Below, in pieces: positions 9,051-51,715 of a stretch of 64,000 nucleotides of DNA. The stretch is taken from contig JBAZRH010000001.1 of the NCBI GenBank assembly GCA_041663045.1, positions 84,403 to 148,402 of the forward strand. The letters run 5' to 3'. The position numbers and the translations under genes were made by a program. The notes under the pieces were generated by a model. The model saw nothing but the letters and a program-made list of their open reading frames with translations, was not told where the DNA came from and searched no databases. How positions within the stretch are numbered: the first letter of the stretch is position 1; every line of letters begins with the position of its first letter. This stretch comes from Minisyncoccota bacterium. GTDB taxonomy: Bacteria > Patescibacteriota > Minisyncoccia > Phycocordibacterales > GWA1-40-21.

Positions 9051-10277
9051 TTAGAAACAATATTTTCCGTTTTTGTAGATTACTCTCTTGCTGTCATCCT
9101 TGAGTATTGCTGTAATAATCCTTGGGGTAGTAGTAACGATATCTGTATGGACAGAAGAATTATTAAAGCCAAGCTTACTCCAGGTTTTCTTAGACACAGT
9201 GTTTGCTTTTCCATCATAGCAGTCGTGATATGAATTACCCAGAGCTATGTGAGTGTTGCCATTCCTTCCACCAATATTCTCATCATATAAAGTATCTGCC
9301 ATAAATCTTGTAATGTGAGAGAATCTTCTATCTGTCATAGAAAATTCCCCGATTCTATCTGCACCTTCTGTAGCTATCATTTGTCTTAAGAGCTTTTCAT
9401 TTCTCCTAGCTGTACTTTTTACAACTACCCCATCTTTAAATTCAAGTCCTATCCCTTCGACAACATTTCCATATATATAAAGAGGCTGATTAAATTTCAC
9501 CCAGCCATTTGTTCCGCGCCAATCAGGAGAAGTAAATATTTCAAAACTCGGAATATTACGTCCGCTACCATAAGCCCATTGGCGCTTCTTTCCGACAGTA
9601 ATCCATAGATCCACGTCTTTACCCTCAATATGAAGTCTATCAATAGTCATTCTATTGAGTCTCTTTCTGTATTTCTCCAATTCTTTATATATTTTTTTCC
9701 ACCTTGCTACGGGATTATCCTCATTTAAGAAGCATGCTTTGATAATTTGATCCCAGTATTCTCTAACTGACATATTAGCTTCCCTTGCCATTGCTTCAGT
9801 GCCGTAAGAACCAACTGTCCAGGTAAATTTTCCAGCATTTTCTTTTTTATTTCGCCAATCCATCCATGGCTTAAAGGTCTTATTTCTTTTCAATATCTTT
9901 CTCGGATTGATGTTTTGAAGAGAGCGAATGTCTGTTTCACTATTGATGAAAATTGAATGATCAATTTGTTTAATTAAACCCTTAAGATGGTGATATGGAA
10001 AGAAACACAGCTGATGATCTTTACAGTGTAAGTAGAAGTCTTCATCAACATTACAGCTACTTTCATTTGAGGGGAGAAAGTTTGAGATAACATGTGCTCC
10101 AGATTTCCATATTGCTTTTCTAACTTCAAGATACAATGGTTTATTTGATTCTTCGGCCACTAAATATACAACTTCTCCCTTTTTTACTCCCTTACCACTA
10201 TTTAAAGCAAAATTTACTAGGACATTAGCATATTTTTCTAGTATCTTTTTGGGTGGAATATATGAACTTTTCATCAT
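9051..10277 (-). CDS. Aminopeptidase, M29 (AmpS/PepS) family
   Basis: Family-typical N-terminus KYANVLVNFALNSGKGVKKGEVVYL. Start set at the MMKSS methionine (10277), avoiding the implausible upstream extension that overlaps the divergent helicase gene. Confidence 0.65.
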   Translation of the reverse strand: MMKSSYIPPKKILEKYANVLVNFALNSGKGVKKGEVVYLVAEESNKPLYLEVRKAIWKSGAHVISNFLPSNESSCNVDEDFYLHCKDHQLCFFPYHHLKGLIKQIDHSIFINSETDIRSLQNINPRKILKRNKTFKPWMDWRNKKENAGKFTWTVGSYGTEAMAREANMSVREYWDQIIKACFLNEDNPVARWKKIYKELEKYRKRLNRMTIDRLHIEGKDVDLWITVGKKRQWAYGSGRNIPSFEIFTSPDWRGTNGWVKFNQPLYIYGNVVEGIGLEFKDGVVVKSTARRNEKLLRQMIATEGADRIGEFSMTDRRFSHITRFMADTLYDENIGGRNGNTHIALGNSYHDCYDGKANTVSKKTWSKLGFNNSSVHTDIVTTTPRIITAILKDDSKRVIYKNGKYCF

Positions 10278-10334
10278 TTTCTTAGTATATATTAAAAATA
10301 TAAAAATAGTAGGTGTCATGTTATAATTTATAAA

Positions 10335-13300
10335 GTGAATTTTGAGGAACAATATAAAGCACTGAATAAAGAACAGAAAAAGGCGGTAGACACTATAGAG
10401 GGACCGCTTCTTGTCGTGGCTGGCCCTGGGTCTGGCAAAACGCAGATTTTGAGTTTGCGTGTCGGGGAAATATTGAAGAATACTCAAGCGAGGGCTTCAA
10501 ATATTTTGTGCTTGACATTCACCGAATCCGCAAGCGCAAATATGCGAAAACGTCTTGCGACTTTTATAGGTGCCGAGGCTTATCGTGTTGCTATACACAC
10601 CTTTCATAGTTTTTGTGTGGAGATAATACAAAAATATCCGGAATATTTTTATAGTGGAGCTTTTTTCTCTGCAGCGGATGAACTTACTCAAGTGAAAATA
10701 TTAGAAGAGATATTTGAGAATCTCCCAAGGAAAAATCCATTAAAATCTGTCCATCCGGAGCAAGGCTTTGTATATTTGAAAGACACTCTCAAAGTGATTA
10801 GCTATTTTAAAAAAGCGGGTATTACTCCAGAAGAATTTAATAAAATTTTGGAACACAATGAAAGCCTTTTGCCGGAAGTGAATAAGATTTTGGCGAAAGT
10901 CTTTTCCGAAAGAGTAAGTAAAGGAAGTATTGAAAAAGCCAGTTCGGCACTTCTCGATTTTGAGGGTCTTACAAAGAAAAGTGCGGGTGATTTTCCGTCA
11001 CCGTATTTGAAAGATCTCGTCTCAAGTATTACTGAATCTTTCAGGATAGCGGTGGACAAGGCAAATGAAGATGGTAAGGCTTCGGAGCTTTCAGCATGGA
11101 GAGAAAAATGGATAAAGAAAGACAATAAAGATAGGCCGGTGTTTAAAGACACTCAAAATATGGAAAAGCTTCATGCTCTTGCCGATATTTATGAGAAGTA
11201 TAAAAACACAATGCATGAGAAGGGTTACTATGATTTTGACGATATGATACTCGATGTCTTGGAAACTCTTCTGAAAAACCAATCTCTGCGATATGAAATA
11301 CAAGAACAGTATCAGTATATTTTGGTGGATGAATTTCAGGATACAAACGATGCGCAGATGAGACTTTTAAGATTTATTACAGACGCGCCAGTGCATGAGG
11401 GTAAGCCGAATATTATGGCGGTGGGTGATGACGATCAAGCGGTTTATAAATTTCAGGGAGCAGAACTTTCTAATATTTTAAATTTCAAGAATACATTTAA
11501 AGATGTACAAACTGTGACAATGACAGCGAATTATCGTTCCACGCAGGATATTTTGGACATTGCTTCGCATATTATAAAAAAGGGGAGTAAACGTCTCGAG
11601 ACTATTTTACCGGAAATAGAGAAAAACCTTATTGCCTCAAATGAGAGAATCGGCAAAGGAGAAATAGTAAATAAAGAATTTCCGACTTCCGCACATGAGC
11701 TTCATTTTATTTCAAGAGAAATTAAAAAACTTGTTGATAGTGGGCAAAATCCGGAAGAGATAGCTGTGATTGCCAGAAAACATTGGCAACTTGAAGAGGT
11801 CGTGCCCTATCTTGCTGGTGTAAATATCTCAATACGATATGAAAGAGAGCAAAATGTCTTGAAGGAGCCACATGTGGTCGAGCTTATAGATATTGCAAGA
11901 TTTGTCGCTTCAATCGGTAAAAAAGAGAAAGATGAATCGGACGAACTTTTGCCGAAAATACTTTGCTTTCCATTTTGGGGTATAAGTAGAGAAACTGTTT
12001 GGAAAATATCTCTTGCTTCAAGACGCGCTCCAGAAGGCAAGACTTGGCTTGAAAATATGCTTGAATATTCCGATGAGAAAGTACAAAATATCGCAAAGTT
12101 TTTTATAGATCTTGGGGCAAGGGCCGAAAATGAACCACTTGAAAGGGTTTTGGATGAAGTAATCGGTGCAAGGGTCAGCACGGCAAAAGATAATGAAGAC
12201 GATTCAGACGATGAAGTAGAGGGTATAAAGTATAAGTATGAGGGAACAGAGAAGTTTTCTAGTCCTTTTAGAGATTTTTATTTCAGCAAAGACAAATTTG
12301 AACATGCCAGGGCAGAATACATTTCTTTTCTTTCCAGTTTAAGGACATTTATCAGTGCTTTGCGTGAATACAAGAGTGGCGAAATTCTTGCAATAAAAGA
12401 CCTCGTCGAATTTGTAGAGCTTCATGAGAAGAATAAGATTTCAGTAAATGATCAAGGACCTTTTTCTAAACTCGGTAAGGCGGTAAACCTACTCACAGCA
12501 CACAGGGCAAAGGGGCTTGAATTTGAGACAGTTTTCGTGCTTTCTTGCCAAGATGATATCTGGGCGGGCAGAGGTATGCCTAAGAAAATCGTATTGCCGG
12601 CAAATATGCCAATAGAACCAGCCGGAGACACGGAAGATGACCAATTACGCCTGTTTTATGTGGCTATAACGCGTGCCAAGCAACATTTATACCTGACCTC
12701 GTATCTATTAGGGGAAAAGGGTAAAAGTGCCCAAAAACTGCGTTTTCTGATGCCTGGGGAGGATAATAAAGAGCTTGAAAATAAGGCTCTTAAAAAGGCG
12801 TATTTTGCCGATAATTCTTCCGAAAAAAGTGAGGAACCAGAGGCGAGTGAAGTGCTTACAGCCTCATGGCTTTCATATCATACGGCACCATTTCTCGGTT
12901 CGGAAAAGAAGCTTCTCCAATCGCTTCTTGAAGATTATAAACTCTCGGTGACGCATTTAAATAATTTTCTAAATGTTGAAAAAGGAGGTCCACAATATTT
13001 CTTGGAGAATAATCTTTTGAGATTCCCACAAGCAAAGACTCTTTCAAATTCTTTCGGGACGGCGATGCATTCTACACTTGAGAAAGCTGTAATTGAATTA
13101 AAAAATGTCGGGAAATTACCGAGTATAGAAAAAGTTTGTAAATGGCTTTCGGAATTTTTGAAAAAAGAAAGATTACCGTTGGCAGATTTTAAAGAACTTT
13201 TGGAGAGGGGGGAAGAAGCACTTAACGCCTTTTGGAAAGAGAGAAGTAAAGATTTCAATACAAAAGATGTAATCGAATTTAATTTTAAAGACCAAGGGGT

Positions 13301-13748
13301 TGTGGTAAGTGGGGCAAGTCTTTCCGGGAAAATAGACAGAATTGTAAACCTTGGAGGAGGTGAGCTTGAAGTACATGATTATAAGACCGGCAAAGCACCC
13401 AAAAATGAATGGGTAGGTAAAGAGCCTTATGAAAAAGTGAAGCTTCATGAATATGAAAGACAGTTGGTTTTTTATAGATTACTTGTAGAGAATTCACGTG
13501 AATTTAGTGACAGGGGAGTGAAAGTAAAAATGGGTGTTTTGGATTTTGTCGAACCGAGAGAGAAGGATGGGAAAATAGTAAGTTTATCAATCGACATCAC
13601 AGACGAGAAAAGAGATAGACTAGAAAAGCTTATTCAAAAAGTTTATGAGAAAATAATGGATTTAGATTTTCCGGATATAAGCAAATACGCTAAGGATTTG
13701 AAAGGAATAGAGCAATTTGAGGAGGATCTTTTGGAGGGTAAGATATAA
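10335..13748 (+). CDS. UvrD/PcrA/AddA-type superfamily 1 helicase fused to a C-terminal RecB-family PD-(D/E)xK nuclease domain
   Basis: GTG start. Walker A (GPGSGKT), motif II (VDEFQDTN), motif V/VI ([28 protein letters not shown]). C-terminal nuclease motifs IDRIV...EVHDYKTGK...QLVFY. No Cys cluster, so AddA-like rather than AddB-like. Confidence 0.85.
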
Positions 13749-13760
13749 ATATTGTTTTTA

Positions 13761-15707
13761 CTATTCCTTAGGATATTTAGACATTATAATTGGAAAATAT
13801 TGATCTATCGGTATTTTTTCAGCCAGATATTGACTCCCAAAAAGGCTTAAGTGGTTGTTGTCTTTATATAAGAATTGATTATTTATTGTTATAAAACATT
13901 CGGTCTGATTGCATAATACAGAAGATGGATCGATGTTTATGATTTGTGGGTATTTCTTTTTTAGATTGTCTATTCGTCTATTCATACCGGAAATCATTTT
14001 GTCGTATGACTTTCTAGGGAAGGAACAGCCCGTAGTTTTATTCTGCGTAGAGGACAGTGGACGATCGATACATTTTGTCAAATCAAAAGGTATTGTTGGT
14101 GTTTGCGTAAACCAGATCAATTTAATATTATTCGGAAAGTATGAGAGAATATTATCCATACCTTCTCGAAAAAGGTCTCTATTCTTGGACCAAGCATTAT
14201 TCGATATTATTATCGCTTTAGGTTTTCCTAAAAGGACTGTATTGATAACATTTCTTATATTTATATCACAACTCTTTTGTTGTTGGACCGGCATACTCTT
14301 TACGTCTAATAATGAACAGGCACCAATGCCTATGTTGATTACTGTATAACCCCTTTCTGTTAATATTTTACTATAACCCATATAGATAGATTTTGTATGT
14401 GAATCTCCAATTATAAACACACGATTATTACCATCTCCGTTCGCAAAACATATGAGTTTATAAATACTTTGTGGAAAAAGTTTTTTACAAAGTGTTTTAC
14501 CGTCTATTCTCTCTGAGGCTGTTTTAAGTGCATTTTCTTGGATCGGGAAGCGAAAATCAAATCCATGATTTAAATATACAAGTATGCCTCCACTACCTAC
14601 TAATAACATAATACAGCATAATATTATTGGAATATTTCTTATTTTTGTGTGCCGTATAGGCATTTCTATTAACCTGTATGTAATCCAGGCAAATAAGAAG
14701 CTAAATATAATTAAAATTAACTTTACAATCGTAGATACTGCCCCAGAATTGATTATTGTTGCAAATGATAATAATGGCCAATGCCAAAGATAGAGAGGGT
14801 AGCTAATCAGACCTATAAAGACCAACATTTTATTTGAAAGTATATTTTTATTTACCCAAGCTTGTGGCCCAGATGCTATAAGTAAGATTACCCCGATTAT
14901 CGACATAACGACAATACCGCTATGGAAGTTGGAATCATTAATTATAAAAGCAGATAAAACTATCAGAATAATTCCTAACCATGATAATGTGTTATAAATA
15001 AAAGAGTCGGACATATTTTTTATTTTTAGTCTGATAGCTATATTATTTATTAGTCCTCCTTTTAATATAGTGAAATAAGCTAAGAGAGCACCCCCCATAA
15101 GTTCCCAAAAGCGTGTGAAGGGTAGATAAAAAGCTGTGGCAGGGCTTTTAAAGCCCAAGTATATATTTAAAAAGAAAGATATAAGTAATATAATAAATAT
15201 CGTCTGGGGGATTCTTTTAATCTTTTTATATATAAAGACAAGCAGAATCGGCCAAAGTATATAAAACTGTTCCTCGACACCTAGTGACCACAAATGTATC
15301 AATGGTTTTAAAGTAGAGGATATATCGAAATACCCTGATTCAAGCCAGTAAATTATATTTGCAATAAAACCAGCACCAGAAGCTATATTTTTACCGAGAG
15401 AAGCGTATTCTCCGGAAAAAAGTAAAAACCAGCCGGCTATTAGACAGGCTATAAGTACCAATATTAATGATGGGAATATTCTTTTTATACGACGTCTATA
15501 GAAGTCTATATAACTAAATTGATTATTTTCAAGTGCCTTTAATATTATTCCGGATATTAAATATCCTGATATGACAAAGAATATATCCACACCAATAAAA
15601 CCACCCGCAAGTATTGTTGGGAAAGCATGGAATATTATTACCAGTAGTACAGCCAACGCCCTAAGCCCATCTATATCTTTGCGATAATTTAATAAAGTAT
15701 CACTCAT
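13761..15707 (-). CDS. Acyltransferase family 3 membrane protein with a C-terminal SGNH hydrolase domain (OafA/YrhL-like glycan O-acetyltransferase)
   Basis: N-terminal LRALAVLLVIIFH...GVDIFFVISGYLI acyltransferase-3 signature. Multiple TM segments. C-terminal FIIGDSHT GDS(L) block. Confidence 0.8.
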   Translation of the reverse strand: MSDTLLNYRKDIDGLRALAVLLVIIFHAFPTILAGGFIGVDIFFVISGYLISGIILKALENNQFSYIDFYRRRIKRIFPSLILVLIACLIAGWFLLFSGEYASLGKNIASGAGFIANIIYWLESGYFDISSTLKPLIHLWSLGVEEQFYILWPILLVFIYKKIKRIPQTIFIILLISFFLNIYLGFKSPATAFYLPFTRFWELMGGALLAYFTILKGGLINNIAIRLKIKNMSDSFIYNTLSWLGIILIVLSAFIINDSNFHSGIVVMSIIGVILLIASGPQAWVNKNILSNKMLVFIGLISYPLYLWHWPLLSFATIINSGAVSTIVKLILIIFSFLFAWITYRLIEMPIRHTKIRNIPIILCCIMLLVGSGGILVYLNHGFDFRFPIQENALKTASERIDGKTLCKKLFPQSIYKLICFANGDGNNRVFIIGDSHTKSIYMGYSKILTERGYTVINIGIGACSLLDVKSMPVQQQKSCDINIRNVINTVLLGKPKAIIISNNAWSKNRDLFREGMDNILSYFPNNIKLIWFTQTPTIPFDLTKCIDRPLSSTQNKTTGCSFPRKSYDKMISGMNRRIDNLKKKYPQIINIDPSSVLCNQTECFITINNQFLYKDNNHLSLFGSQYLAEKIPIDQYFPIIMSKYPKE

Positions 15708-15712
15708 AAGAC

Positions 15713-18700
15713 CTAAGTTATACTATTTTCTTCAAGTATTTTGACGACCTCGTCATATGATGAGATTTTGTATGATTCTTTCCAGCCGTCTTTACTTTCA
15801 GCCTTAGTTAGGGAGATTTTATGAATACTTTGATTAAGCTTTTTCGTGTCAGCAATGATTTTCATATTTCTTAATATCATAGGATTGGCTCTTCTTTCAA
15901 GAACTGTGATCTTTGCCCTAACCTCATTTAAGAATATTAATGTATGAAATGCCGAACCATTGAATCCCGCTATATGTTTGGCTGAAGCTAAGGTCATTAT
16001 CTGTTCTTTGATCGCATGTTTTTCAGGATGAAATATCATCCACCCTTTTGTAGCGAGAATTTTTTCAAGTTCGTCTTCGTTTGTTATGATCGATTTTGAA
16101 TTTCTTGGTTGAATCATTGATCTTGATAACCAAAGCTTCTTATCCTCAGATTCTTTCGTATCAAAGATGGCAAGGCTTTTTGCATGTTCTACGTCGAAGA
16201 ATTCTCTAAGTAGTAGACCAGGAGTAGGGATAATCAATCTTTCTACTATTGTCGGCTTTTGTATGATAATTTGTTCATTTTTAATATTCAATAAAGATAA
16301 GATCTCCTTCTGCCAATGGTTAGGTTCTGCGGAATTATACATGGGAATCCATATTATAGGTATTTCTGGATGTTTCTTGATATACCAAATTCTTGACAGA
16401 CCTTCGAGAATGAAATGACCGAAATGACTTTGTAAATGACCAGCAAATATATATGTGCCCTTCAAGATTCCTGTGGGCTTTATCGTATTTCTAGAGAATG
16501 TGAATTGTCCATCCTCAATTCTTTTAGGCATCTCTTTAAGACGCAATTTCCCTTCAGAATCGACGACTCCTAATATAGCTTTTCCTCGCATATCTGTTAG
16601 GCATGGGGCGAGAATTGCTTGTTCGATGGTCTCCACTAGTAGTTCATGGTTTGACCTCGAACTATTTGTATTATTACTTTTTTGTTCTTCCTGCGTCTTT
16701 AGTGATTTAGTATATTTTTCTCTCCATAGAGTAGCATACCCCCCGAATCTCTTTTCTGCAAAATCAAAATCTTCTTTAAATGTATTCGCATAGAAATCAC
16801 GAATATTCTCTGGCATATCGGATGGTTTGCCTACAAATATTTTTTCTTTTGATCTTGGAAAATATTTGTCTTTGTATCTTACGTTTAGAAAATCACATAT
16901 TTGTCTTAATAATTTTAATGGATCATTTACTATATCATCATAGAAACCATAGAATATATTCTCTTTTGGAAAGACATTTTCCCAATTCTCTACTATTTCT
17001 TTTATCTTGCTTCTATTTATAATAAATGGTTTGTTATAACACAAGGTAGGATCGATTCCCTTCGTATCAGCCCACATTCTAGATGCAGACCATGCCCGGT
17101 CAATAGGGTTCCTTAGTAATAAGATGATTTTCATTTTAGGATTTACTTTTCGGCAATGTCTTATCTCATTTATAGATAAGATAGAATAGTCTGGTGTGAA
17201 ATCTCCAGTCAGCATACTAGCCGGGGCTGATTCCCATAAGCTTTCGTAGTATCTATCGTCGAGATTTTTTGTAAAGCCAAATTTATTGAAAAATTTCAGG
17301 TCACTTAATATCGGTCCTATACCACCTAGTTTCTGATTTAATGCCCGTGGTATTTTCTCGAGCAATCTCTTCATATTTCTTGCTGCAGATAAAAGCCTTC
17401 TTTCAGCTATCATCGGCCCAGCATGTATTTCATCGAAGTAGTGCACTTCCTTTATCGGGAGTGCCCAGAAATTTGGATGCCTTTTAATATTTTCATAGAG
17501 CCATGTGGTACCAGCCTTTTGCATACCAATACAGAGGAAATCCGGTCTCGATCTTTCCTTCAGTATATCTTTGAAATACTTACCAAGTAGGTTATTTTTG
17601 AGTGCTCTTTTAATAAATGCAGTTCTAATCCTGAACCTCCAGAACGTACTTAAAATATTACCCGTATTCTTAATTGATTTAATATATTCTAGAGTATTTT
17701 CTATAATCTCTTCACACTTTTCTTTTGACATCCTACTTTTATATTCTGATATAAAATCTGTATCCACATGACTTCCATATATATTTTCTTTAAACTTTGT
17801 ACTAGAAATATCCATGTACTTATCATTATATTCCAAACCACAATGTTTGAATATTTTTGGTAGTATCTTTTTGGGATATCTACATAATTCTTCATAGGAT
17901 ACTACCATTATCCTATCTTTATTCTGACCCAGTAAAGCATATTTCAGAGCGATATAATAAGAAAGTAAATGATTGAATGACGCAGGATATTTCTCCTTGA
18001 ACCATTCGTCTATCATTTCATTTCTATCGATGTTTCGTAACCCTATGTCATGTTTACAAGACGACCATACGAGTGATCTCGGGTCCCTTATAATCGCTAC
18101 ACATGGGACACCCGGAGCTTTTTCTAAGACTTCCTCAAGTCTTTGCATATATCTTGGTGTCTTGTCGATGATTTTGTTATTATTGATTACTAACGGGGAG
18201 ATTTCTCTAAGTCGTGAATATGCTTCTGCAAAATCGTCAGTATCACATATTTTGTCCAGATCTCCTTTCTTAATTTTCCAACCATCAAGCATATTTTTAT
18301 AGAACGGGTCAAAACCTATAAAGTCTCTTGGCTTATCTACAAGTAAAAAACCTATTTCAAATCCGGAGTTTATAGATGGATGATTGCTCAATATGTCCAT
18401 GAGCATCGTTGTCCCACTATGCTCATGACCACAGATTATTGCTTGAACACTGTCTTTGATCTTTCTAGTACCCGTCTCTTTTATAGTAGCCTTTATCTTT
18501 GGGTTCTCGTGACGCACGTTTTTTATTAAAAAGTTGCTCCCTTTCAAGTTTAGATAATACTCTCTTTTTTTTGCAAAGTCTACATAAATAATATCTTTTA
18601 TATTATTAAGATCTTCGTTCAAGACATCCTCTGGCTTTCCTTTTGTAATTATTCCCAAGCCTTGATCGCAATCAAGTGTAAAGATATTCAGATCTTTTCT

Positions 18701-19177
18701 TGAAGATCTCAAGTAAATCAAGGTTTTGTATACGTCGCCGTTCCAGGCGGTGCTTTTATCACCATCTCTTTGTCTCAATTTGCGCGCATCAGATTGTGTC
18801 TTTTGTGCCGCCGCCTCTGATTTTGGATTGCAATCGTGTACTACAACAAAACCGTTTTTGTTCAAATGATCGAGGGAATTATTTATGTCTTTCAGCGATT
18901 GTTCGTATGTGTGAAGACCATCTACAAATACGACATCAAGCTCGATATCTCCTATGAGAGAATCATATTCTTTGAAAAATCTATCACTTGTTATTTCATG
19001 ATATGATTCATTTGGTTTTTTTGAATATCCTGGTGGCAATCCAAATCTCGGATCGACAGCGATTTTCTTGTCGACCCTAATCTTTGAAAAGTTATTCCCC
19101 TTAGCGACACCAATTTCTAGATAAGTTTTTGCTCCAATCCTATCAATGAAGTGTTGTATAACATCCGTTCTGTTCAT
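15713..19177 (-). CDS. 1154-aa multidomain glycan-modifying protein: class I SAM methyltransferase-like domain, two tandem sulfotransferase domains, and a GT61 (DUF563)-like glycosyltransferase domain
   Basis: Methyltransferase-like N-terminus (VVFVDGLHTYEQSL...VVVHD). Sulfotransferase 5'-PSB/3'-PB motifs occur twice (CGHEHSGTTML with RDPRSLVWS; GMQKAGTTWL with LLRNPIDRAWSAS). GT61-like C-terminus (GHLQSHFGHFILEGLSRIW...HIAGFNGSAFHTLIFL). Confidence 0.7.
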   Translation of the reverse strand: MNRTDVIQHFIDRIGAKTYLEIGVAKGNNFSKIRVDKKIAVDPRFGLPPGYSKKPNESYHEITSDRFFKEYDSLIGDIELDVVFVDGLHTYEQSLKDINNSLDHLNKNGFVVVHDCNPKSEAAAQKTQSDARKLRQRDGDKSTAWNGDVYKTLIYLRSSRKDLNIFTLDCDQGLGIITKGKPEDVLNEDLNNIKDIIYVDFAKKREYYLNLKGSNFLIKNVRHENPKIKATIKETGTRKIKDSVQAIICGHEHSGTTMLMDILSNHPSINSGFEIGFLLVDKPRDFIGFDPFYKNMLDGWKIKKGDLDKICDTDDFAEAYSRLREISPLVINNNKIIDKTPRYMQRLEEVLEKAPGVPCVAIIRDPRSLVWSSCKHDIGLRNIDRNEMIDEWFKEKYPASFNHLLSYYIALKYALLGQNKDRIMVVSYEELCRYPKKILPKIFKHCGLEYNDKYMDISSTKFKENIYGSHVDTDFISEYKSRMSKEKCEEIIENTLEYIKSIKNTGNILSTFWRFRIRTAFIKRALKNNLLGKYFKDILKERSRPDFLCIGMQKAGTTWLYENIKRHPNFWALPIKEVHYFDEIHAGPMIAERRLLSAARNMKRLLEKIPRALNQKLGGIGPILSDLKFFNKFGFTKNLDDRYYESLWESAPASMLTGDFTPDYSILSINEIRHCRKVNPKMKIILLLRNPIDRAWSASRMWADTKGIDPTLCYNKPFIINRSKIKEIVENWENVFPKENIFYGFYDDIVNDPLKLLRQICDFLNVRYKDKYFPRSKEKIFVGKPSDMPENIRDFYANTFKEDFDFAEKRFGGYATLWREKYTKSLKTQEEQKSNNTNSSRSNHELLVETIEQAILAPCLTDMRGKAILGVVDSEGKLRLKEMPKRIEDGQFTFSRNTIKPTGILKGTYIFAGHLQSHFGHFILEGLSRIWYIKKHPEIPIIWIPMYNSAEPNHWQKEILSLLNIKNEQIIIQKPTIVERLIIPTPGLLLREFFDVEHAKSLAIFDTKESEDKKLWLSRSMIQPRNSKSIITNEDELEKILATKGWMIFHPEKHAIKEQIMTLASAKHIAGFNGSAFHTLIFLNEVRAKITVLERRANPMILRNMKIIADTKKLNQSIHKISLTKAESKDGWKESYKISSYDEVVKILEENSIT

Positions 19178-19190
19178 TTTGGATAAAACT

Positions 19191-19982
19191 CTATTTTACA
19201 AGTATGTCGAGTATCGGTGTGATAGCCTGCAAGGGGAGTGCCCCGTTTAAAACTATTTTTGTTTTGTCGCTTGTGATAGAGATATTTTGTGATAGACCGG
19301 ATTTTACTACCAAGTCATTTATTGATTTTTCTACAGGAGAAGTAAGTGCTTTTCTCAAAACTATCAAACTATAAGGTGTGCCTTGAGCTCCAGCTTTTAG
19401 TCCATCCTGATATTGAGCTTCAACGGTGGCCGCATATTTTCCGCTTGAAAGACATGTGTTGAATTTGGCTTGATCCAAACCGATAGCTTTTGCAAAAACC
19501 GGCAAAAGACTAGGATCCATCTGATTGTTCGATGGCGTATTTGTATAAATCTTATCTATCATATTCCAGAAGCCAGTATTTCCAGCAAGCTCATTTGCGC
19601 ATTCTGTCGCCTCAGCTTCTTTCCTTGTCTTTGGGTGAATACTATCAAGAGGGAAATGTCTGTATACCCAAGCTACTTTGCCATCTTTTCCATATTGGTC
19701 GATTATGCTTTGCATTGTGGTATGAAATCTCTTACAGAATGGGCATTCGGTATCGCTGTATTCCAAAATTGCTACATTGGCATTTGGATTGCCTTTAATA
19801 TGATCCGAGCTATCTATCGTCTTAATTGATATTCCAGATGCAACCTGCTTTTTTACAGGTTGATTTGTATTTTGAGAAGGAGAGCTATCCTTGCCAGTCA
19901 GATAAATCGCTCCTGCGATTATAAATCCTGCCAAGAGTATTGCTGCCGGTACATAATAAACTTTGCTTTGTTCTGATGTCAT
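19191..19982 (-). CDS. DsbA-family thiol:disulfide oxidoreductase, membrane-anchored
   Basis: N-terminal TM segment. CPFC active site within a thioredoxin fold (YSDTECPFCKRFH). Confidence 0.7.
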   Translation of the reverse strand: MTSEQSKVYYVPAAILLAGFIIAGAIYLTGKDSSPSQNTNQPVKKQVASGISIKTIDSSDHIKGNPNANVAILEYSDTECPFCKRFHTTMQSIIDQYGKDGKVAWVYRHFPLDSIHPKTRKEAEATECANELAGNTGFWNMIDKIYTNTPSNNQMDPSLLPVFAKAIGLDQAKFNTCLSSGKYAATVEAQYQDGLKAGAQGTPYSLIVLRKALTSPVEKSINDLVVKSGLSQNISITSDKTKIVLNGALPLQAITPILDILVK

Positions 19983-23967: not shown

Positions 23968-24005
23968 ACCCGCGCAATCCAAAAGGAAAGCGCGGGTCTT
24001 TTTAT
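23968..24005. terminator. Bidirectional intrinsic terminator (acccgcgc...gcgcgggt + T-run) between the receiver-like gene and the convergent gene
   Basis: 8-bp GC stem with a T-run on one side and an A-run on the other. Confidence 0.65.
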
Positions 24006-24754
24006 TCCAATTCTATTTTTATATCTCCGAAATATACAAATTCGTCTTTTTTAGGAGCCCAAGTCGCATCATTACCACCAAAGAATGTCGTGAACATAAA
24101 TGAATCTATTCCATAACTCATACCTTTAGCCCTGAAAGTTCCTGTAGTCGAGAGAGCCAATTTCCCATCAAACCGACATGTGATATTCCCATCATTTTCT
24201 CCAGGAGTATTCATTACAATTCTTGTAGTAAGTGTATGCCATTTCCCCGGTATAAACCTAAAAGGTCTCATATCTCCGTCCAAATCAATCCAAGGTAAAT
24301 CATCCCCCCAATTTTTCTTTTCATCTTTTTCCATCCAATACATATATTGGAAAATTTCCCCATTTTCTCTCCACATTACCCTCGCAGTAAAACCATCTCC
24401 GAGATTCGACTTATCGCCACCCCTTGGGGCTGTGCCACCATAAAATCCAGGTAATTTTCCACCCCTTACAAAATCAAATCCTTCCGGAAACATAACCTTA
24501 TATGTAACAGTTGCAGATTCTACAGGCTTATCAAATCTTAAACGCCACCTCGTCTTTTCTTCTTGTATTATTTCTTTTTGATACTTTATCTGTAAAACTT
24601 TTCTGTCATTATTAAGAGGATCTTTTACAATACTACAAAGACCCTCTTTTACACCTACAATTTTAGGAGGATTATTGAAAAGTCTATTTATTATCTTTTC
24701 ATCAATCAATCCGACAATTTCTTTATCAAAAGTAATTTCTATTATTTTAGGCAT
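24002..24754 (-). CDS. Hypothetical beta-sandwich protein, possibly polysaccharide-lyase (PL14)-like
   Basis: GGKLPGFYGG and Gly/Trp-rich beta-strand blocks. No signal peptide. Family assignment is tentative and from memory. Confidence 0.3.
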   Translation of the reverse strand: MPKIIEITFDKEIVGLIDEKIINRLFNNPPKIVGVKEGLCSIVKDPLNNDRKVLQIKYQKEIIQEEKTRWRLRFDKPVESATVTYKVMFPEGFDFVRGGKLPGFYGGTAPRGGDKSNLGDGFTARVMWRENGEIFQYMYWMEKDEKKNWGDDLPWIDLDGDMRPFRFIPGKWHTLTTRIVMNTPGENDGNITCRFDGKLALSTTGTFRAKGMSYGIDSFMFTTFFGGNDATWAPKKDEFVYFGDIKIELE

Positions 24755-50296: not shown

Positions 50297-51715
50297 TTAG
50301 ACTCTTTTGTACAGGTCCCAGATCAACCATTTGAGGGTCGCTAGGGAGTGAATACAGAAACGGTCGTCTACAGACCAGATACTGCCATTTCGTAGCCATG
50401 ATCCATAAGCACAACCACCACCACAGATACCGAGGGCAGGACACCCAAAGCACTGTGGCATGTTCAAGGGCGTTCGTCTTTTCCACTCACTAATCACGGG
50501 ATTGTGGTGAAAATCGAAGTTTTTCGATACTTTGGCAAAGAAGAATTGCTTAGCACCGATACCTTCATGACAAACACCCAAATGACCATCAGGTGTACAG
50601 ACGAGCTGAGCCCCGAGAGCTTGGCAATCATACGCATGGATACGTTTTTCCATAAAGGACTTTGCCTTACGCATTATTCTGTCTTCGTACACCCCTTCCT
50701 TCCGAGCGAGTTTGAAGTACTCGATCATTCGTTTGGAAACACGTTGCATATATTCTAAACTCACCGTATTGTTTGCCGTATCGACCAGAGGATTCAGGTT
50801 GATTGAGGCAAAGCCATACCTACGATGAAGCTTGAGAAGTGATGGTAGATTGTCAATGTTGTGTTCTCCAACAGTTGTTGAGAGAGAAACGTCTTTCTTG
50901 CCACCAACCCCCTTCAGAAGCTTCACACCCCTTATCGCTTTGTTGAATGATCCGCATCCACCTACGCATATCCTTTCGGTGTCATGAATTTTCTTTGGAC
51001 CATCAATCGATATGGCGATATCGATGTTATCGTGAGCTCCGATAAACCGAGAGATTTCCTCGGTTATCATCGTCCCGTTAGAGACAATGGCTAATCGTAG
51101 CTTTGGTCCCAAGGCGACAACTTCATTCTTGTAAGCAGATTCGATGTATTCCACCGACTGCTTGATCAGAGTGAAGTTGAGGAACGGTTCTCCCCCATAG
51201 AAGAAAATCGTCTTCTTGAGACCGGTATATTCGGGCGGATTGAGTGATAGGTTCCGAAAGAACATGTCAATCGCTTCTTTCGCAACCCTAAACGACATCA
51301 TGCTAGGGCGATATCCCTCTGGCATATTGTTGTTGATGAAGCAGTAGCGACATCGGAGATTACAACTGTCGGTCACAATGAGATAAAGCGTCTCAAGGCC
51401 AGGAGGTAGAACATGAATTCTCCTCTTTTCCTCAAGTAACTTTACATCATCGCTTTCTACAGCCACAATCATTCCGGTCCGCCAAAGTTCTTTTATCACT
51501 CGAACCATCTCTTTCGAGAACATAGGGAACTTTTGATGAAGGTGCTCTGTCGTTGTTCCCAAATGTAGCAATTCCACAACCTGCAGGTATTTCTTTCGAA
51601 GAAACACCAGTTCCATGTTCAGCGAGTGGTAAAGGGCAATGTGACCTCTACCTTTTTCACAAAACAGGTGTGTCCACGAGGACAATCTCATAGATAGATT
51701 ACGTATTTTTTTCAT
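50297..51715 (-). CDS. Radical SAM / SPASM-domain enzyme with a ~115-aa N-terminal extension (RiPP maturase-like)
   Basis: CNLRCRYC is the Cx3Cx2C radical SAM cluster at residues 118-125. C-terminal SPASM signature CFGCPALGICGGGC plus additional Cys. N-terminal extension precedes the radical SAM core. Good SD (AAAGGAGA). Confidence 0.85.
   Translation of the reverse strand: MKKIRNLSMRLSSWTHLFCEKGRGHIALYHSLNMELVFLRKKYLQVVELLHLGTTTEHLHQKFPMFSKEMVRVIKELWRTGMIVAVESDDVKLLEEKRRIHVLPPGLETLYLIVTDSCNLRCRYCFINNNMPEGYRPSMMSFRVAKEAIDMFFRNLSLNPPEYTGLKKTIFFYGGEPFLNFTLIKQSVEYIESAYKNEVVALGPKLRLAIVSNGTMITEEISRFIGAHDNIDIAISIDGPKKIHDTERICVGGCGSFNKAIRGVKLLKGVGGKKDVSLSTTVGEHNIDNLPSLLKLHRRYGFASINLNPLVDTANNTVSLEYMQRVSKRMIEYFKLARKEGVYEDRIMRKAKSFMEKRIHAYDCQALGAQLVCTPDGHLGVCHEGIGAKQFFFAKVSKNFDFHHNPVISEWKRRTPLNMPQCFGCPALGICGGGCAYGSWLRNGSIWSVDDRFCIHSLATLKWLIWDLYKRV

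What the first reader, a model, noticed from the sequence alone, without database searches (positions are those of the whole stretch)
13761..19982. Glycan-decoration locus with a four-domain fusion enzyme containing two sulfotransferase domains
The 1154-aa protein at 15713..19177 concatenates four domains. First is a class I SAM methyltransferase-like domain (VVFVDGLHTYEQSL...VVVHD). Then come two complete sulfotransferase domains, each with textbook PAPS-binding loops: 5'-PSB HSGTTML and KAGTTWL, and 3'-PB RDPRSLVWS and RNPIDRAWS. Last is a GT61/DUF563-like glycosyltransferase (HFGHFILEGLSRIW...HIAGFNGSAFHTLIFL). Its neighbours are an acyltransferase-3/SGNH O-acetyltransferase-like membrane protein and a membrane-anchored DsbA-like oxidoreductase. 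Together these could glycosylate, methylate, doubly sulfate and O-acetylate a surface glycan or glycoprotein. Sulfotransferases are uncommon in bacteria, and tandem sulfotransferase domains fused to a glycosyltransferase and a methyltransferase in one polypeptide appear unusual. In a streamlined genome, this implies that a sulfated surface or secreted glycoconjugate matters to the organism. No PAPS-synthesis genes (sat, cysC, cysDN) are in this window.
Basis: partly seen in the sequence, partly recalled or inferred. Interest (0 to 1): 0.7.

Follow-up and report, generated by a model that had tools for sequence, protein, structure and literature searches.

The report
Four-in-one sulfated-glycan tailoring enzyme
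A tiny-genome (Paceibacterota/CPR) bacterium encodes one 1154-residue protein that joins a methyltransferase, two sulfotransferases and a glycosyltransferase; other microbes carry these as neighbouring separate genes for decorating exported sugar polymers, so it is a rare fusion of an otherwise ordinary toolkit.

Summary
ORF 15713..19177(-) encodes a 1154-aa soluble protein with four domains, all above Pfam gathering scores: Methyltransf_24 (1-217), a TPST/CurM-like sulfotransferase (ST-A, 240-500), a heparan-sulfate-3-OST-like sulfotransferase (ST-B, 541-822) and GT61 (844-1150). PAPS-binding and catalytic residues are conserved among homologues. The GT61 domain model matches only POMGNT2.

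Among 1.84 billion cluster representatives this four-domain architecture is unique. The parts are not rare. In one genome (L007) the four modules are adjacent separate genes behind a giant tandem GT4 enzyme. Two-domain and three-domain fusions are common.

The closest relatives lie on contigs of a small-genome MAG whose record is titled 'archaeon'. There they sit between a tandem GT4 enzyme and a Wzm/Wzt-like exporter, near AglB and the PAPS genes CysNC/CysD.

Most likely the protein tailors a lipid-linked glycan in the cytoplasm: it adds a sugar, O-methylates and sulfates twice.

The 'locus' reading is only partly supported. The AT3-SGNH neighbour is an OafB-like polysaccharide acyltransferase, but neither it nor DsbA travels with the cassette elsewhere. 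The window has no PAPS, exporter or polymerase genes, and the rest of the genome could not be searched.

Verdict: a new variant of a known kind, of moderate interest.

The parts
15713..19177 (-). Gene for the 1154-aa four-domain fusion enzyme (MT, ST-A, ST-B, GT61). It is soluble, with no TM segment or signal peptide.
   Evidence: ORF. Pfam. Identical to P0001, which NCBI names 'MAG: sulfotransferase [Candidatus Paceibacterota bacterium]'. Logan assembly L003 carries the same ORF. Maximum 19-residue Kyte-Doolittle mean is 1.24, so no TM segment.
18527..19177 (-). Residues 1-217: class I SAM-dependent O-methyltransferase-like domain (Methyltransf_24). Motif I is LEIGVAKG; the DGLH and HDC motifs are also present.
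   Evidence: Pfam E=1.3e-10. Many stand-alone 210-240-aa homologues define the boundaries. Invariant residues in 26 sequences: E21, G27, D42, D86, G87, H89, D115. AF2 pLDDT is about 90, and Foldseek matches cation-dependent O-methyltransferases at target TM 0.5-0.55.
17678..18460 (-). Residues 240-500: sulfotransferase domain ST-A (Sulfotransfer_3; TPST/CurM-OLS-like). The 5'-PSB loop is EHSGTT (H253), the putative catalytic base is E274 (GFE), IDKTPRY lies at 337-343, and the 3'-PB is RDPRSLVWS (R364, S372).
   Evidence: Pfam E=9.3e-36. Alignment to TPST1 places E274 on the second Glu of TPST's 'CGEE' motif; that this Glu is the catalytic base comes from memory. Foldseek matches OLS/CurM ST at 2.5e-9 and TPST at 1e-7. 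Motif conservation.
16712..17557 (-). Residues 541-822: sulfotransferase domain ST-B (Sulfotransfer_1; heparan-sulfate 3-OST-like). The 5'-PSB loop is QKAGTTW (K554), the catalytic motif is KEVHYFD (E577, H579), and the 3'-PB is RNPIDRAWS (R689, S697). Residues 591-617 can be drawn as a cationic amphipathic helix.
   Evidence: Pfam E=2.7e-23. PDB sequence hits: 3rnl at 4.6e-11 and 3-OST-1/3/5 at about 1e-5, with the KxGT and EVHFFD motifs aligned. Motif conservation. 672 homologues at E<=1e-8. Hydrophobic-moment scan.
15728..16648 (-). Residues 844-1150: GT61 (DUF563-type) glycosyltransferase domain. It carries the HFGHFILEGLSR motif and the AGFNGSAFH motif.
13761..15707 (-). Downstream neighbour (5-bp gap): a membrane AT3 acyltransferase fused to an extracytoplasmic SGNH domain, with GDSH and DNNH motifs. 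It is a probable polysaccharide O-acyltransferase. Its link to the fusion enzyme rests on operon position only.
   Evidence: Pfam Acyl_transf_3 2.8e-29 and SGNH 6.5e-30. About 10 hydrophobic segments. The SGNH domain's only PDB sequence relative is 6se1, 'putative lipopolysaccharide modification acyltransferase', E=0.002. It is not found beside the cassette elsewhere.
19191..19982 (-). Upstream neighbour (13-bp gap): a membrane-anchored DsbA-like thiol-disulfide oxidoreductase with a CPFC motif. It is probably co-transcribed. No evidence ties it to the glycan pathway.
   Evidence: Pfam Thioredoxin_4 5.8e-23 and DSBA 5.4e-12. One N-terminal TM segment at residues 7-31. Sequence.

Best explanation
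The 1154-aa protein is a Rosetta-stone fusion of a recurring four-module glycan-tailoring cassette. Shown: it has four separately folding catalytic domains, namely an O-methyltransferase-like class I SAM domain, two different PAPS-type sulfotransferases with intact nucleotide-binding and catalytic residues, and a GT61 glycosyltransferase. It has no membrane segment or signal peptide, so it works in the cytoplasm. Also shown: homologues of the four modules are adjacent separate genes directly behind a giant tandem GT4 glycosyltransferase in another genome. Its closest relatives lie between a tandem GT4 enzyme and a Wzm/Wzt-like ABC exporter, next to AglB, Alg13/14 and the PAPS-synthesis genes CysNC/CysD. 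Inferred: on the cytoplasmic face of the membrane, the GT61 domain adds a sugar to a polyprenol-linked glycan built by other glycosyltransferases. The MT domain then O-methylates the product using SAM, and the two ST domains sulfate it at two different positions using PAPS. The finished glycan is exported and displayed on the cell surface as a wall polymer or glycoprotein glycan. Fusion keeps the four steps stoichiometric and channelled in a small genome. The adjacent AT3-SGNH enzyme may O-acylate the same or another glycan after export. That link rests on position only.
For: Domain calls are all above Pfam gathering scores. Domain boundaries come from hundreds of stand-alone homologues. Catalytic and PAPS-site residues are conserved in both ST subfamilies, and ST-B aligns with 3-OST across KxGT, EVHFFD and RDPxxRxxS. 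ST-A aligns with TPST/CurM, including the Glu taken to be the catalytic base. The MT fold matches cation-dependent O-methyltransferases. The GT61 fold matches POMGNT2. L007 encodes tandem GT4 (1485 aa), then ST (matches ST-B, E=3e-50), ST (matches ST-A, E=6e-69), GT61 (E=2e-76) and an MT-like protein (E=1e-19) as consecutive genes. In L001 and L002 the related multi-ST proteins lie between a 66%-identical tandem GT4 and a 72%-identical Wzm-like permease plus ABC ATPase; L002 also has AglB/STT3, Alg13/14, CysN-CysC (APS kinase E=1e-71), CysD and TauE. ST+GT61 adjacency or fusion recurs in Desulfosediminicola, P0091 and Trichodesmium P0010. About 38 GT61+MT fusions occur among 161 relatives. Stand-alone relatives sit in polysaccharide clusters. 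Published sulfated-capsule clusters combine PAPS genes, sulfotransferases, a GT61 and an ABC exporter (PMC11641403). There is no TM segment or signal peptide.
Against: In this window none of the conserved partners is present: no tandem GT4, Wzm/Wzt, oligosaccharyltransferase or PAPS-synthesis genes. The rest of the genome could not be searched, so the PAPS supply and the acceptor pathway in this organism are unverified. No acceptor, donor sugar or product is known for any member of these four subfamilies. ST-A has His253 where canonical enzymes have the Lys/Arg that contacts the 5'-phosphosulfate. The ST-B part of the full-length model was low-confidence, so active-site geometry was not checked structurally. 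The order of the four reactions is a guess.
Confidence: 0.6

Rival explanations
1. Chain-terminating cap. The enzyme acts only at the non-reducing end of a polymer made by a tandem GT4 polymerase. It adds one sugar and methylates and sulfates it, so that polymerisation stops and the ABC exporter recognises the finished chain. This is the role of WbdD (kinase plus methyltransferase) and the K. pneumoniae O7 ORF6 terminator.
For: In relatives the tailoring gene sits exactly between a tandem GT4 enzyme and Wzm/Wzt-like genes. The content of that slot differs between two otherwise 66-72% identical loci, as serotype-specific terminators do. GT+MT pairing is typical of terminators (PMC11231755). In the relatives the ABC ATPase is 329-367 aa long, longer than I recall for a bare nucleotide-binding domain.
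Against: No coiled-coil molecular ruler was found: zero heptad windows, and the longest helices predicted in the inter-domain regions are about 22 residues. No Wzt_C/CBM family was detected in the relatives' ABC ATPases at E<=0.01. There are no Wzm/Wzt genes in this window. Two sulfotransferases plus a methyltransferase is more chemistry than a single cap needs.
Confidence: 0.2
2. Direct protein modification. ST-A is a TPST/RaxST-like tyrosine sulfotransferase, and the GT61 domain, like POMGNT2 or EOGT, extends or starts a protein-linked glycan. The target would then be a pilin, S-layer protein or secreted peptide rather than a lipid-linked polymer.
For: ST-A's nearest solved relatives include TPST1/2 (Foldseek 1e-7). 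The only structural relative of the GT61 domain is POMGNT2, which acts on an O-mannosyl peptide.
Against: Sequence similarity to TPST is marginal (E=0.1-0.4) and no better than to the CurM/OLS sulfotransferases, which from memory act on acyl-carrier-bound intermediates rather than on proteins. Every genomic context found is a polysaccharide-type cluster with large polymerising GTs, rfb genes or ABC-2-like exporters. ST-B is of the carbohydrate (3-OST) type.
Confidence: 0.08
3. Decoration of a small secreted or membrane glycolipid or oligosaccharide, similar to Nod-factor tailoring, rather than a cell-surface polymer. From memory, that tailoring uses NoeE/NodH sulfation, NoeI methylation, NodZ glycosylation and acetylation by the AT3-family enzyme NolL.
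For: There is a weak NCBIfam hit of ST-A to NoeE (E=1.3e-4, 20.8 bits against a cutoff of 500). The gene set here (ST, MT, GT and a neighbouring AT3 acyltransferase) mirrors Nod-factor decorations. No polymerase or exporter is nearby in this genome.
Against: The NoeE score is far below its cutoff. Relatives are embedded with giant polymerising GT4 enzymes and ABC-2-like exporters. No backbone synthase was seen in the window's Pfam scans.
Confidence: 0.07
4. A partly or wholly inactive relic. The gene was acquired as a block, the genome cannot make PAPS or the acceptor, and one or more domains (for example ST-A with His253) no longer catalyse their reaction.
For: No partner or PAPS genes are in 64 kb. 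The canonical Lys/Arg is missing in ST-A. An MT-like paralogue with degenerate SAM motifs exists in L007, so module decay does occur in this cassette.
Against: The 3.46-kb reading frame is intact. All catalytic and cofactor-binding motifs are conserved in all four domains. His is the commonest residue at that position in the ST-A subfamily, so it is not a lesion. GC, GC3 and codon usage are indistinguishable from the housekeeping neighbours, which argues for long residence under selection.
Confidence: 0.05

Closest known systems
Unfused ST-B / ST-A / GT61 / MT-like gene cassette behind a tandem GT4 enzyme (L007, GCA_011391125.1 contig JAABRE010000018.1; organism not verified)
   Same: The same four module families occur, one gene each, adjacent and co-directional. 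Identities to our domains are 35%, 40%, 41% and 31%, with E-values from 3e-50 to 1e-19.
   Different: There they are four separate polypeptides next to their presumed polymerase. The MT-like member has degenerate SAM motifs (YLEIMATDE, LNDVH). Here all four are fused in the order MT, ST-A, ST-B, GT61, with intact motifs and no polymerase nearby.
Multi-sulfotransferase proteins P0002 (1904 aa) and P0003 (971 aa), on contigs of or related to 'MAG: archaeon isolate SO_2017_GW1_71'
   Same: These are the closest relatives of MT (55%), GT61 (50%) and ST-A (43%). The MT-to-ST-A junction is shared with P0002, and the ST-A-before-ST-B order is shared with P0003.
   Different: The domain sets and orders differ: P0002 is MT, GT2/GT92, GT61, ST, ST and Sulfotransfer_2; P0003 is ST-A, ST-A', an unassigned region and ST-B. 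They sit in a full cluster with tandem GT4, Wzm/Wzt-like genes, AglB, Alg13/14 and CysNC/CysD. The archaeal assignment comes from the record title only.
Multi-module terminator and polymerase proteins of ABC-transporter-dependent O-antigen assembly (E. coli O9a WbdD; K. pneumoniae O7 ORF6, O12 WbbB)
   Same: Cytoplasmic multi-module proteins combine a methyltransferase with other tailoring or GT modules. The modules are variably split or fused between organisms. They are associated with tandem-GT polymerases and Wzm/Wzt (PMC11231755; PMC3482155, listed).
   Different: Those proteins use a kinase or Kdo-transferase, not sulfotransferases. They carry a coiled-coil ruler, which is absent here, and a Wzt carbohydrate-binding module, which was not detected in the relatives.
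Sulfated capsular polysaccharide clusters of marine bacteria (e.g. Vibrio sp. KMM 8419)
   Same: The clusters hold PAPS-synthesis genes, sulfotransferases, a GT61/DUF563 enzyme, an acyltransferase and an ABC exporter. The authors call PAPS genes plus sulfotransferase genes in a polysaccharide cluster a hallmark of sulfated polysaccharide synthesis (PMC11641403).
   Different: All functions there are separate genes in an 80-gene cluster of a Gram-negative bacterium. Here four functions are in one polypeptide and the rest of the pathway is not in view.
Heparan-sulfate 3-O-sulfotransferases and NDST sulfotransferase domain (for ST-B); TPST1/2 and CurM/OLS sulfotransferases (for ST-A); POMGNT2 (for GT61)
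   Same: The fold and the PAPS-binding and catalytic motifs are shared. The GT61 fold is shared.
   Different: Identity is only 13-21%. The acceptors of those enzymes (heparan sulfate, tyrosine, acyl-ACP, O-mannosyl peptide) cannot be transferred to this protein. ST-A has His at the position where TPST and the OLS sulfotransferase have Arg.

Membership tests
PAPS-dependent sulfotransferase, Sulfotransfer_3 type (ST-A, residues 240-500) | Profile HMM match above the curated threshold | tested here: met
   PF13469 scores 124.5 bits against a cutoff of 27, E=9.3e-36, covering positions 3-216 of 216.
PAPS-dependent sulfotransferase, Sulfotransfer_3 type (ST-A) | 5'-PSB loop (xxGTT) with a Lys/Arg contacting the 5'-phosphosulfate | tested here: inconclusive
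   G255-T256-T257 are invariant in 21/21 sequences, but the Lys/Arg position is His253. In the subfamily that position is H10, R7, G3, K1. Whether His substitutes functionally is unknown.
PAPS-dependent sulfotransferase, Sulfotransfer_3 type (ST-A) | 3'-PB Arg and Ser, and a catalytic base Glu | tested here: met
   R364 is R17/K4, S372 is S17/T3 and E274 is conserved 20/21. E274 aligns with the second Glu of TPST1's 'CGEE' and with the Glu of the OLS ST 'PPE'; that these are the catalytic bases is from memory.
PAPS-dependent sulfotransferase, Sulfotransfer_1 / HS 3-OST-like (ST-B, residues 541-822) | HMM above threshold; 5'-PSB Lys; catalytic Glu in the E-x-H-F/Y-F motif; 3'-PB Arg and Ser | tested here: met
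   PF00685 scores 83.1 bits against a cutoff of 22. K554 15/15, E577 16/17, H579 14/17, R689 17/17 and S697 16/17. The motifs align with 3-OST-1 and 3rnl.
Sulfotransferases (both domains) | PAPS-dependent sulfate transfer, and a PAPS supply in the cell | not testable with these tools
   No assay is possible. No sat/cysDN/cysC genes are in the window. A relative has CysNC/CysD 4.5 kb away.
Glycosyltransferase family 61 (residues 844-1150) | HMM above threshold and a GT61 fold | tested here: met
Glycosyltransferase family 61 | Donor and acceptor specificity | not testable with these tools
   No member of this bacterial subfamily found here has a named function beyond 'capsular polysaccharide biosynthesis protein' or 'GT61 family protein'.
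Class I SAM-dependent methyltransferase, Methyltransf_24 (residues 1-217) | HMM above threshold; glycine-rich motif I plus acidic residues; Rossmann MT fold | tested here: met
   PF13578 scores 42.6 bits against a cutoff of 26.3. E21, G27, D42, D86, G87, H89 and D115 are invariant in 26 sequences. AF2 pLDDT is about 90, with Foldseek matches to cation-dependent O-methyltransferases. By sequence there is only a weak profile hit, to 6g7d (E=0.088).
WbdD-type chain terminator of the ABC-transporter-dependent pathway | Coiled-coil molecular ruler in the terminator protein | tested here: not met
   No 42-residue heptad window was found. The longest helices predicted in the inter-domain regions are about 22 residues.
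WbdD-type chain terminator of the ABC-transporter-dependent pathway | Genetic linkage to Wzm/Wzt, with a Wzt C-terminal carbohydrate-binding module | tested here: not met
   There is no Wzm/Wzt homologue in the window. In relatives an ABC-2-like permease (19-21 bits, below the 26.9 cutoff) and an ABC ATPase follow the gene, but no Wzt_C family was detected at E<=0.01.
AT3-SGNH polysaccharide O-acyltransferase (OafA/OafB-like), the neighbour gene | AT3 membrane domain plus SGNH domain with GDS(H) and DxxH catalytic motifs | tested here: met
   Both Pfam domains are above threshold. GDSH and DNNH are present. The SGNH domain aligns over nearly its full length with 6se1 (E=0.002).
AT3-SGNH and DsbA as members of the same glycan-decoration system | Conserved co-occurrence with the ST/GT61/MT cassette | tested here: not met
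   Neither family is adjacent to the cassette in L001, L002, L006, L007, L012 or L013. Only the 5-bp and 13-bp spacing here links them. Synteny around the flanking helicase is not conserved in relatives.

The most novel reading that the evidence does not exclude
The ST-B/ST-A/GT61/MT module set may define an undescribed pathway that installs a methylated, doubly sulfated sugar on ABC-exported glycans. On this reading the pathway is phylogenetically scattered: a cyanobacterium-like genome, a small-genome MAG labelled as an archaeon, and a CPR bacterium. The CPR and small-genome archaeal lineages would have exchanged it across domains, since the closest relatives of three of our four domains are on the 'archaeon' contigs. 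They would use the resulting anionic surface glycan for attachment to, or recognition by, their hosts. If this genome lacks PAPS synthesis, it would also have to obtain activated sulfate from a host.
Probability: 0.15. Interest if true: 0.65.

Novelty: new variant of a known kind. Interest (0 to 1): 0.4.

Why it matters
A fusion like this is direct genomic evidence that four enzyme families work on one substrate. It ties together a GT61 subfamily, a Methyltransf_24 subfamily and two sulfotransferase subfamilies. None of the homologues seen here carries more than a generic functional name. It also points to the unfused cassette in a larger, cyanobacterium-like genome (L007), which may be easier to study experimentally.

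It is also evidence that a Paceibacterota (CPR) bacterium may make a sulfated, methylated glycoconjugate. The searched literature contains nothing on this. In addition, its nearest relatives sit in an AglB-containing cluster with dedicated PAPS synthesis, in a small-genome MAG labelled as an archaeon.

Against that, every domain is a recognisable member of a large family. Similar two- and three-domain fusions are common, and the protein is already annotated as 'sulfotransferase' in NCBI. The finding extends a known theme rather than opening a new one.

Tried and rejected
(1) Assembly or frameshift chimera. Rejected: the Logan assembly carries the same ORF, and the MT/ST-A and ST-B/GT61 junctions are conserved in independent metagenomes.

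(2) Recent horizontal acquisition detectable by composition. Not supported: the gene has GC 0.350, GC3 0.319 and codon score -1.03, all within the range of the housekeeping neighbours. The small GC dip is mainly the AT3 gene.

(3) Synteny test via the flanking UvrD/AddA-like helicase in metagenome contigs. Four loci were found. The closest (65% identity) ends 1 kb after the helicase with an unrelated secreted repeat protein, and the more distant ones share no neighbours. Uninformative.

(4) GTDB species-representative scan with the ST-A alignment. Only the 'archaeon' contig was found, and our own MAG is not among the representatives.

(5) Single-sequence and profile searches of PDB sequences for the MT and GT61 domains gave nothing significant. 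This was resolved by structure prediction plus fold search.

(6) The full-length AF2 model was poor outside the MT domain because of a shallow, domain-shuffled alignment (mean pLDDT 58.9). I used it only for the MT and ST-A regions.

(7) The promoter and terminator scan gave counts no higher than shuffles and no internal minus-strand terminator between the genes. It adds nothing beyond the short gaps.

(8) Literature searches on sulfotransferases or PAPS in CPR, Parcubacteria and DPANN found nothing relevant.

(9) Looking for PAPS genes in the rest of the genome was not possible. The contig look-up returned only 10-12-kb Logan contigs, not the 428,695-bp NCBI contig.

(10) Cluster-member names for the nearest domain relatives were mostly absent.

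Full report
OBSERVATION

The minus strand between 13761 and 19982 carries three tightly packed ORFs:
- a DsbA-like protein, 19191..19982, 263 aa;
- a 1154-aa protein, 15713..19177;
- an AT3-SGNH protein, 13761..15707, 648 aa.

The gaps between them are 13 and 5 bp. Pfam assigns four domains to the large protein, all above gathering thresholds:

| Domain | Pfam family | E-value | Best stretch |
|---|---|---|---|
| MT | Methyltransf_24 | 1.3e-10 | 39-116 |
| ST-A | Sulfotransfer_3 | 9.3e-36 | 247-452 |
| ST-B | Sulfotransfer_1 | 2.7e-23 | 545-769 |
| GT61 | Glyco_transf_61 | 1.2e-19 | 919-1085 |

The neighbours are Acyl_transf_3+SGNH and Thioredoxin_4/DSBA. The identical protein is in NCBI as 'MAG: sulfotransferase [Candidatus Paceibacterota bacterium]' on a 428,695-bp contig. 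The same ORF and neighbours are present in the Logan assembly of run SRR18595301, which may use the same reads.

DOMAIN ANATOMY

An exhaustive phmmer search of 1.84 billion cluster representatives gave 22,249 hits at E<=1e-3 and 745 at E<=1e-30. Because each domain has many stand-alone homologues, the boundaries are sharp: MT 1-217, ST-A 240-500, ST-B 541-822, GT61 844-1150. The protein has no hydrophobic segment or signal peptide, so it is cytoplasmic. The AT3-SGNH protein has about 10 hydrophobic segments, and the DsbA-like protein has one N-terminal anchor.

ARE THE SULFOTRANSFERASE DOMAINS REAL AND INTACT?

ST-B aligns with bacterial sulfotransferase 3rnl (E=4.6e-11) and with heparan-sulfate 3-O-sulfotransferases (about 1e-5). 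The alignments cover the KxGT 5'-PSB loop, the 'EVHFFD' motif (KEVHYFD here) and the RDPxxRxxS 3'-PB. From memory, the Glu of that motif is the catalytic base in 3-OST.

ST-A aligns weakly by sequence with TPST1/2 and the CurM/OLS sulfotransferases. At the fold level the match is significant: 2.5e-9 for OLS ST and about 1e-7 for TPST. Its E274 falls on the second Glu of TPST's 'CGEE' motif, which from memory is the catalytic base.

Motif conservation among homologues:
- ST-A: GTT 21/21, E274 20/21, DKTP 20-21/21, R364 as R/K 21/21, S372 as S/T 20/21.
- ST-B: K554 15/15, E577 16/17, H579 14/17, R689 17/17, S697 16/17.

One nuance is that ST-A has His253 where canonical enzymes have Lys/Arg. His is the most frequent residue at this position in the subfamily (H10, R7, G3, K1). 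It is therefore a subfamily trait rather than a lesion, but its functional meaning is untested.

THE OTHER TWO DOMAINS

The MT domain keeps motif I (LEIGVAKG) and the acidic residues that are invariant in 26 homologues. It is modelled at pLDDT about 90 and matches cation-dependent O-methyltransferases of the CCoAOMT/catechol-OMT type.

HOW UNUSUAL IS THE ARCHITECTURE?

I mapped the four domains onto the 161 proteins retrieved:
- one MT-STA-STB-GT61 protein, which is ours;
- 32 GT61-MT, 5 MT-GT61 and 1 GT61-GT61-MT;
- 2 STB-STB and 1 STB-GT61 (P0091, collinear with ours over residues 550-1095, E=5e-57);
- P0002 (MT, GT2/92, GT61, ST, ST, Sulfotransfer_2; 1904 aa) and P0003 (ST-A, ST-A', an unassigned region, ST-B; 971 aa).

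A Trichodesmium protein, P0010, is ST-GT61-MT. A protein with all four domains would outscore the listed two-domain hits. The four-domain fusion therefore appears unique in this library, while its sub-combinations are common.

Sulfotransferases of these types are not rare in prokaryotes. ST-B alone has 672 hits at E<=1e-8, from Dehalococcoidia, Chthoniobacterales, cyanobacteria, Eremiobacterota, Actinomycetota, Bacteroidota and others.

GENOMIC CONTEXT ELSEWHERE (THE KEY FUNCTIONAL EVIDENCE)

(i) L007 (GCA_011391125.1) encodes consecutive genes: a 1485-aa TPR plus tandem GT4 enzyme, then four modules:

| L007 gene | Matches our domain | Identity | E-value |
|---|---|---|---|
| ST, 281 aa | ST-B | 35% | 3e-50 |
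| ST, 267 aa | ST-A | 40% | 6e-69 |
| GT61, 332 aa | GT61 | 41% | 2e-76 |
| 232-aa protein | MT | 31% | 1e-19 |

Our protein is therefore a Rosetta-stone fusion of a cassette that exists unfused.

(ii) P0002 and P0003 lie in two loci whose flanks are 66% identical (tandem GT4, about 930 aa) and 72% identical (ABC-2-like permease). In both loci the tailoring gene sits between the GT4 enzyme and a permease plus ABC ATPase pair. L002 also carries an STT3/AglB-like oligosaccharyltransferase, Alg14/Alg13, a GT2, a CysN-CysC fusion (APS kinase E=1e-71), CysD and TauE. Its contig is titled 'MAG: archaeon isolate SO_2017_GW1_71' (985,290 bp). I did not verify that assignment independently.

(iii) The closest ST-B relative, P0166, follows GT2-GT1 and tandem GT4 giants and precedes another ST, a GT92 and a Sulfotransfer_2 protein.

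(iv) In Desulfosediminicola ganghwensis the order is ST, GT61, GT2, GT92-like.

(v) The closest MT relative, P0004 (62% identity), lies in a GT2, MT-fusion, GT4, GT2 cluster.

(vi) Stand-alone relatives on Roseobacter-group plasmids lie beside rfbFGH and a 1288-aa glycosyltransferase.

(vii) A published sulfated-capsule cluster in Vibrio combines cysNDC, sulfotransferases, a GT61/DUF563, an acyltransferase and an ABC exporter. Its authors call PAPS genes plus sulfotransferases in a polysaccharide cluster a hallmark of sulfated polysaccharide synthesis (PMC11641403).

CONTEXT IN THIS WINDOW

The rest of the 64 kb is housekeeping: rpoC, dnaG, sigA, pheA, an ABC-F protein, an M29 peptidase, a UvrD/AddA-like helicase, UppP, L21, CTP synthase, RecR, DnaB, several aminoacyl-tRNA synthetases, the MraY/FtsW/MurG cluster and DnaK/DnaJ/GrpE. 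tblastn with the relatives' CysNC, CysD, TauE, Wzm, tandem GT4 and AglB finds nothing except generic ABC-ATPase similarity. So the statement 'no PAPS genes in the window' is confirmed, and the conserved pathway partners are absent too.

The gene's GC, GC3 and codon usage match its neighbours, so there is no sign of recent acquisition. Synteny around the flanking helicase is not conserved in relatives.

THE NEIGHBOURS

The AT3-SGNH protein has intact GDSH and DNNH motifs. Its SGNH domain's only solved sequence relative is 6se1, deposited as 'putative lipopolysaccharide modification acyltransferase' (E=0.002). From memory that entry is the Salmonella O-antigen acetyltransferase OafB. The neighbour is thus a credible polysaccharide O-acyltransferase acting outside the membrane. 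However, neither it nor the DsbA-like protein accompanies the cassette in any other locus examined. The 'locus' therefore rests on spacing alone, and nothing ties DsbA to glycan decoration.

MECHANISM

Shown: four intact catalytic modules in one cytoplasmic polypeptide, and genomic coupling of these modules to each other across several lineages. Their closest relatives are also coupled to giant polymerising GT4 enzymes, ABC-2-like exporters, an oligosaccharyltransferase and PAPS synthesis.

Inferred: the protein tailors a polyprenol-linked glycan on the cytoplasmic face. GT61 adds a sugar, the MT domain O-methylates, and ST-A and ST-B sulfate two different positions with PAPS. The product is then exported and displayed. 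I give this a confidence of about 0.6.

A more specific version is a WbdD-like chain-terminating cap that licenses ABC export. This is attractive given the gene's position in relatives and the literature on variably fused terminator modules (PMC11231755). However, the defining coiled-coil ruler is absent, and no Wzt carbohydrate-binding module was detected. I give it about 0.2.

Direct protein modification, a Nod-factor-like small glycolipid and a decaying relic are less likely, for the reasons given under the rival explanations.

NOVELTY AND VERDICT

The domain families, the logic of fusing tailoring modules, and sulfated-polysaccharide clusters are all known. The protein already carries an automatic 'sulfotransferase' name. 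Three things are new:
- the complete four-module fusion, unique in the library searched;
- the recognition that ST-B, ST-A, GT61 and an MT-like protein form a cassette (complete but unfused in L007), with subsets recurring in several lineages;
- its presence in a CPR bacterium, with closest relatives in an AglB/PAPS cluster of a small-genome MAG labelled 'archaeon'. No paper in the searched library addresses this.

I rate it a new variant of a known kind, with interest 0.4. The main open question is whether this genome can make or obtain PAPS and where the acceptor glycan is built.

Noticed in passing
L002 / L005 (JBAZYC010000001.1, 'MAG: archaeon isolate SO_2017_GW1_71', contig positions 102092-125007): A small-genome MAG labelled as an archaeon carries a compact cluster: AglB/STT3-like oligosaccharyltransferase, two LamG proteins, tandem GT4, MT23, a triple-sulfotransferase protein, an ABC-2-like permease plus ATPase, Alg14/Alg13, GT2, a CysN-CysC fusion, CysD and TauE. 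This looks like a self-sufficient pathway for a sulfated protein-linked glycan exported by an ABC transporter.
   Followed up: partly
L001 5927-11641 versus L002 8958-12916: Two loci with 66-72% identical flanks (tandem GT4 and Wzm-like permease) hold completely different tailoring genes in the slot between them. One has a 1904-aa MT, GT2/92, GT61, ST, ST, ST2 protein; the other has an MT23 gene plus a 971-aa triple-ST protein. This is a serotype-like variable cassette.
   Followed up: partly
P0002 residues ~265-305 (L001): After its MT domain, P0002 keeps only the first ~25 residues of an ST-A domain (VKAIICRVKGGGTTLLSEV), and a GT2/GT92 domain follows. This looks like a scar of domain insertion into an ancestral MT-ST-A fusion like ours.
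   Followed up: no
window 18419-18421 (His253 codon); alignment of 21 ST-A homologues: The ST-A subfamily mostly has His (10/21) or even Gly (3/21) at the 5'-PSB position that is Lys/Arg in characterised sulfotransferases. The Gly variants occur as second copies in tandem-ST proteins (P0002, P0003 domain 2). They may have altered PAPS handling or be non-catalytic partner domains.
   Followed up: partly
window 17327-17407 (residues 591-617 of the fusion): This is the highest hydrophobic-moment segment of the protein: a putative amphipathic helix with net charge +4 to +5. It lies in the stretch between the EVHYFD motif and the TPDY motif, which is absent from the ST-B-like domain of P0003. It could be a membrane-docking or acceptor-binding element.
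   Followed up: no
L007 12709-13407: The MT-like gene of the unfused cassette has lost the glycine-rich SAM motif (YLEIMATDE) and the DGxH motif (LNDVH). It may be a non-catalytic pseudo-methyltransferase retained in the cassette.
   Followed up: no
window 24002-24754 (-): A 250-aa protein is a strong match to polysaccharide lyase family 14 (PF21294, E=1.8e-43). It lies 4 kb from the fusion gene, next to recR and dnaB.
   Followed up: no
window 54476-55594 (-): A single 372-aa protein fuses S-adenosylmethionine decarboxylase (E=3e-29) with spermidine synthase (E=3e-22). This is another pathway-compacting fusion in the same genome.
   Followed up: no
window 50297-51715 (-): A 472-aa radical-SAM protein stands out compositionally from the rest of the window: GC 0.450, GC3 0.490 and codon score -1.27, against about 0.32-0.43 GC and -0.94 to -1.19 for most other genes. 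It is a possible recent acquisition.
   Followed up: no
window 9051-10487 (-) versus 10335-13748 (+): The mechanical ORF for the M29 aminopeptidase (478 aa from a TTG) overlaps the helicase start by about 150 bp. The gene called on the Logan contig is 408 aa, so the true start is probably an internal codon.
   Followed up: no
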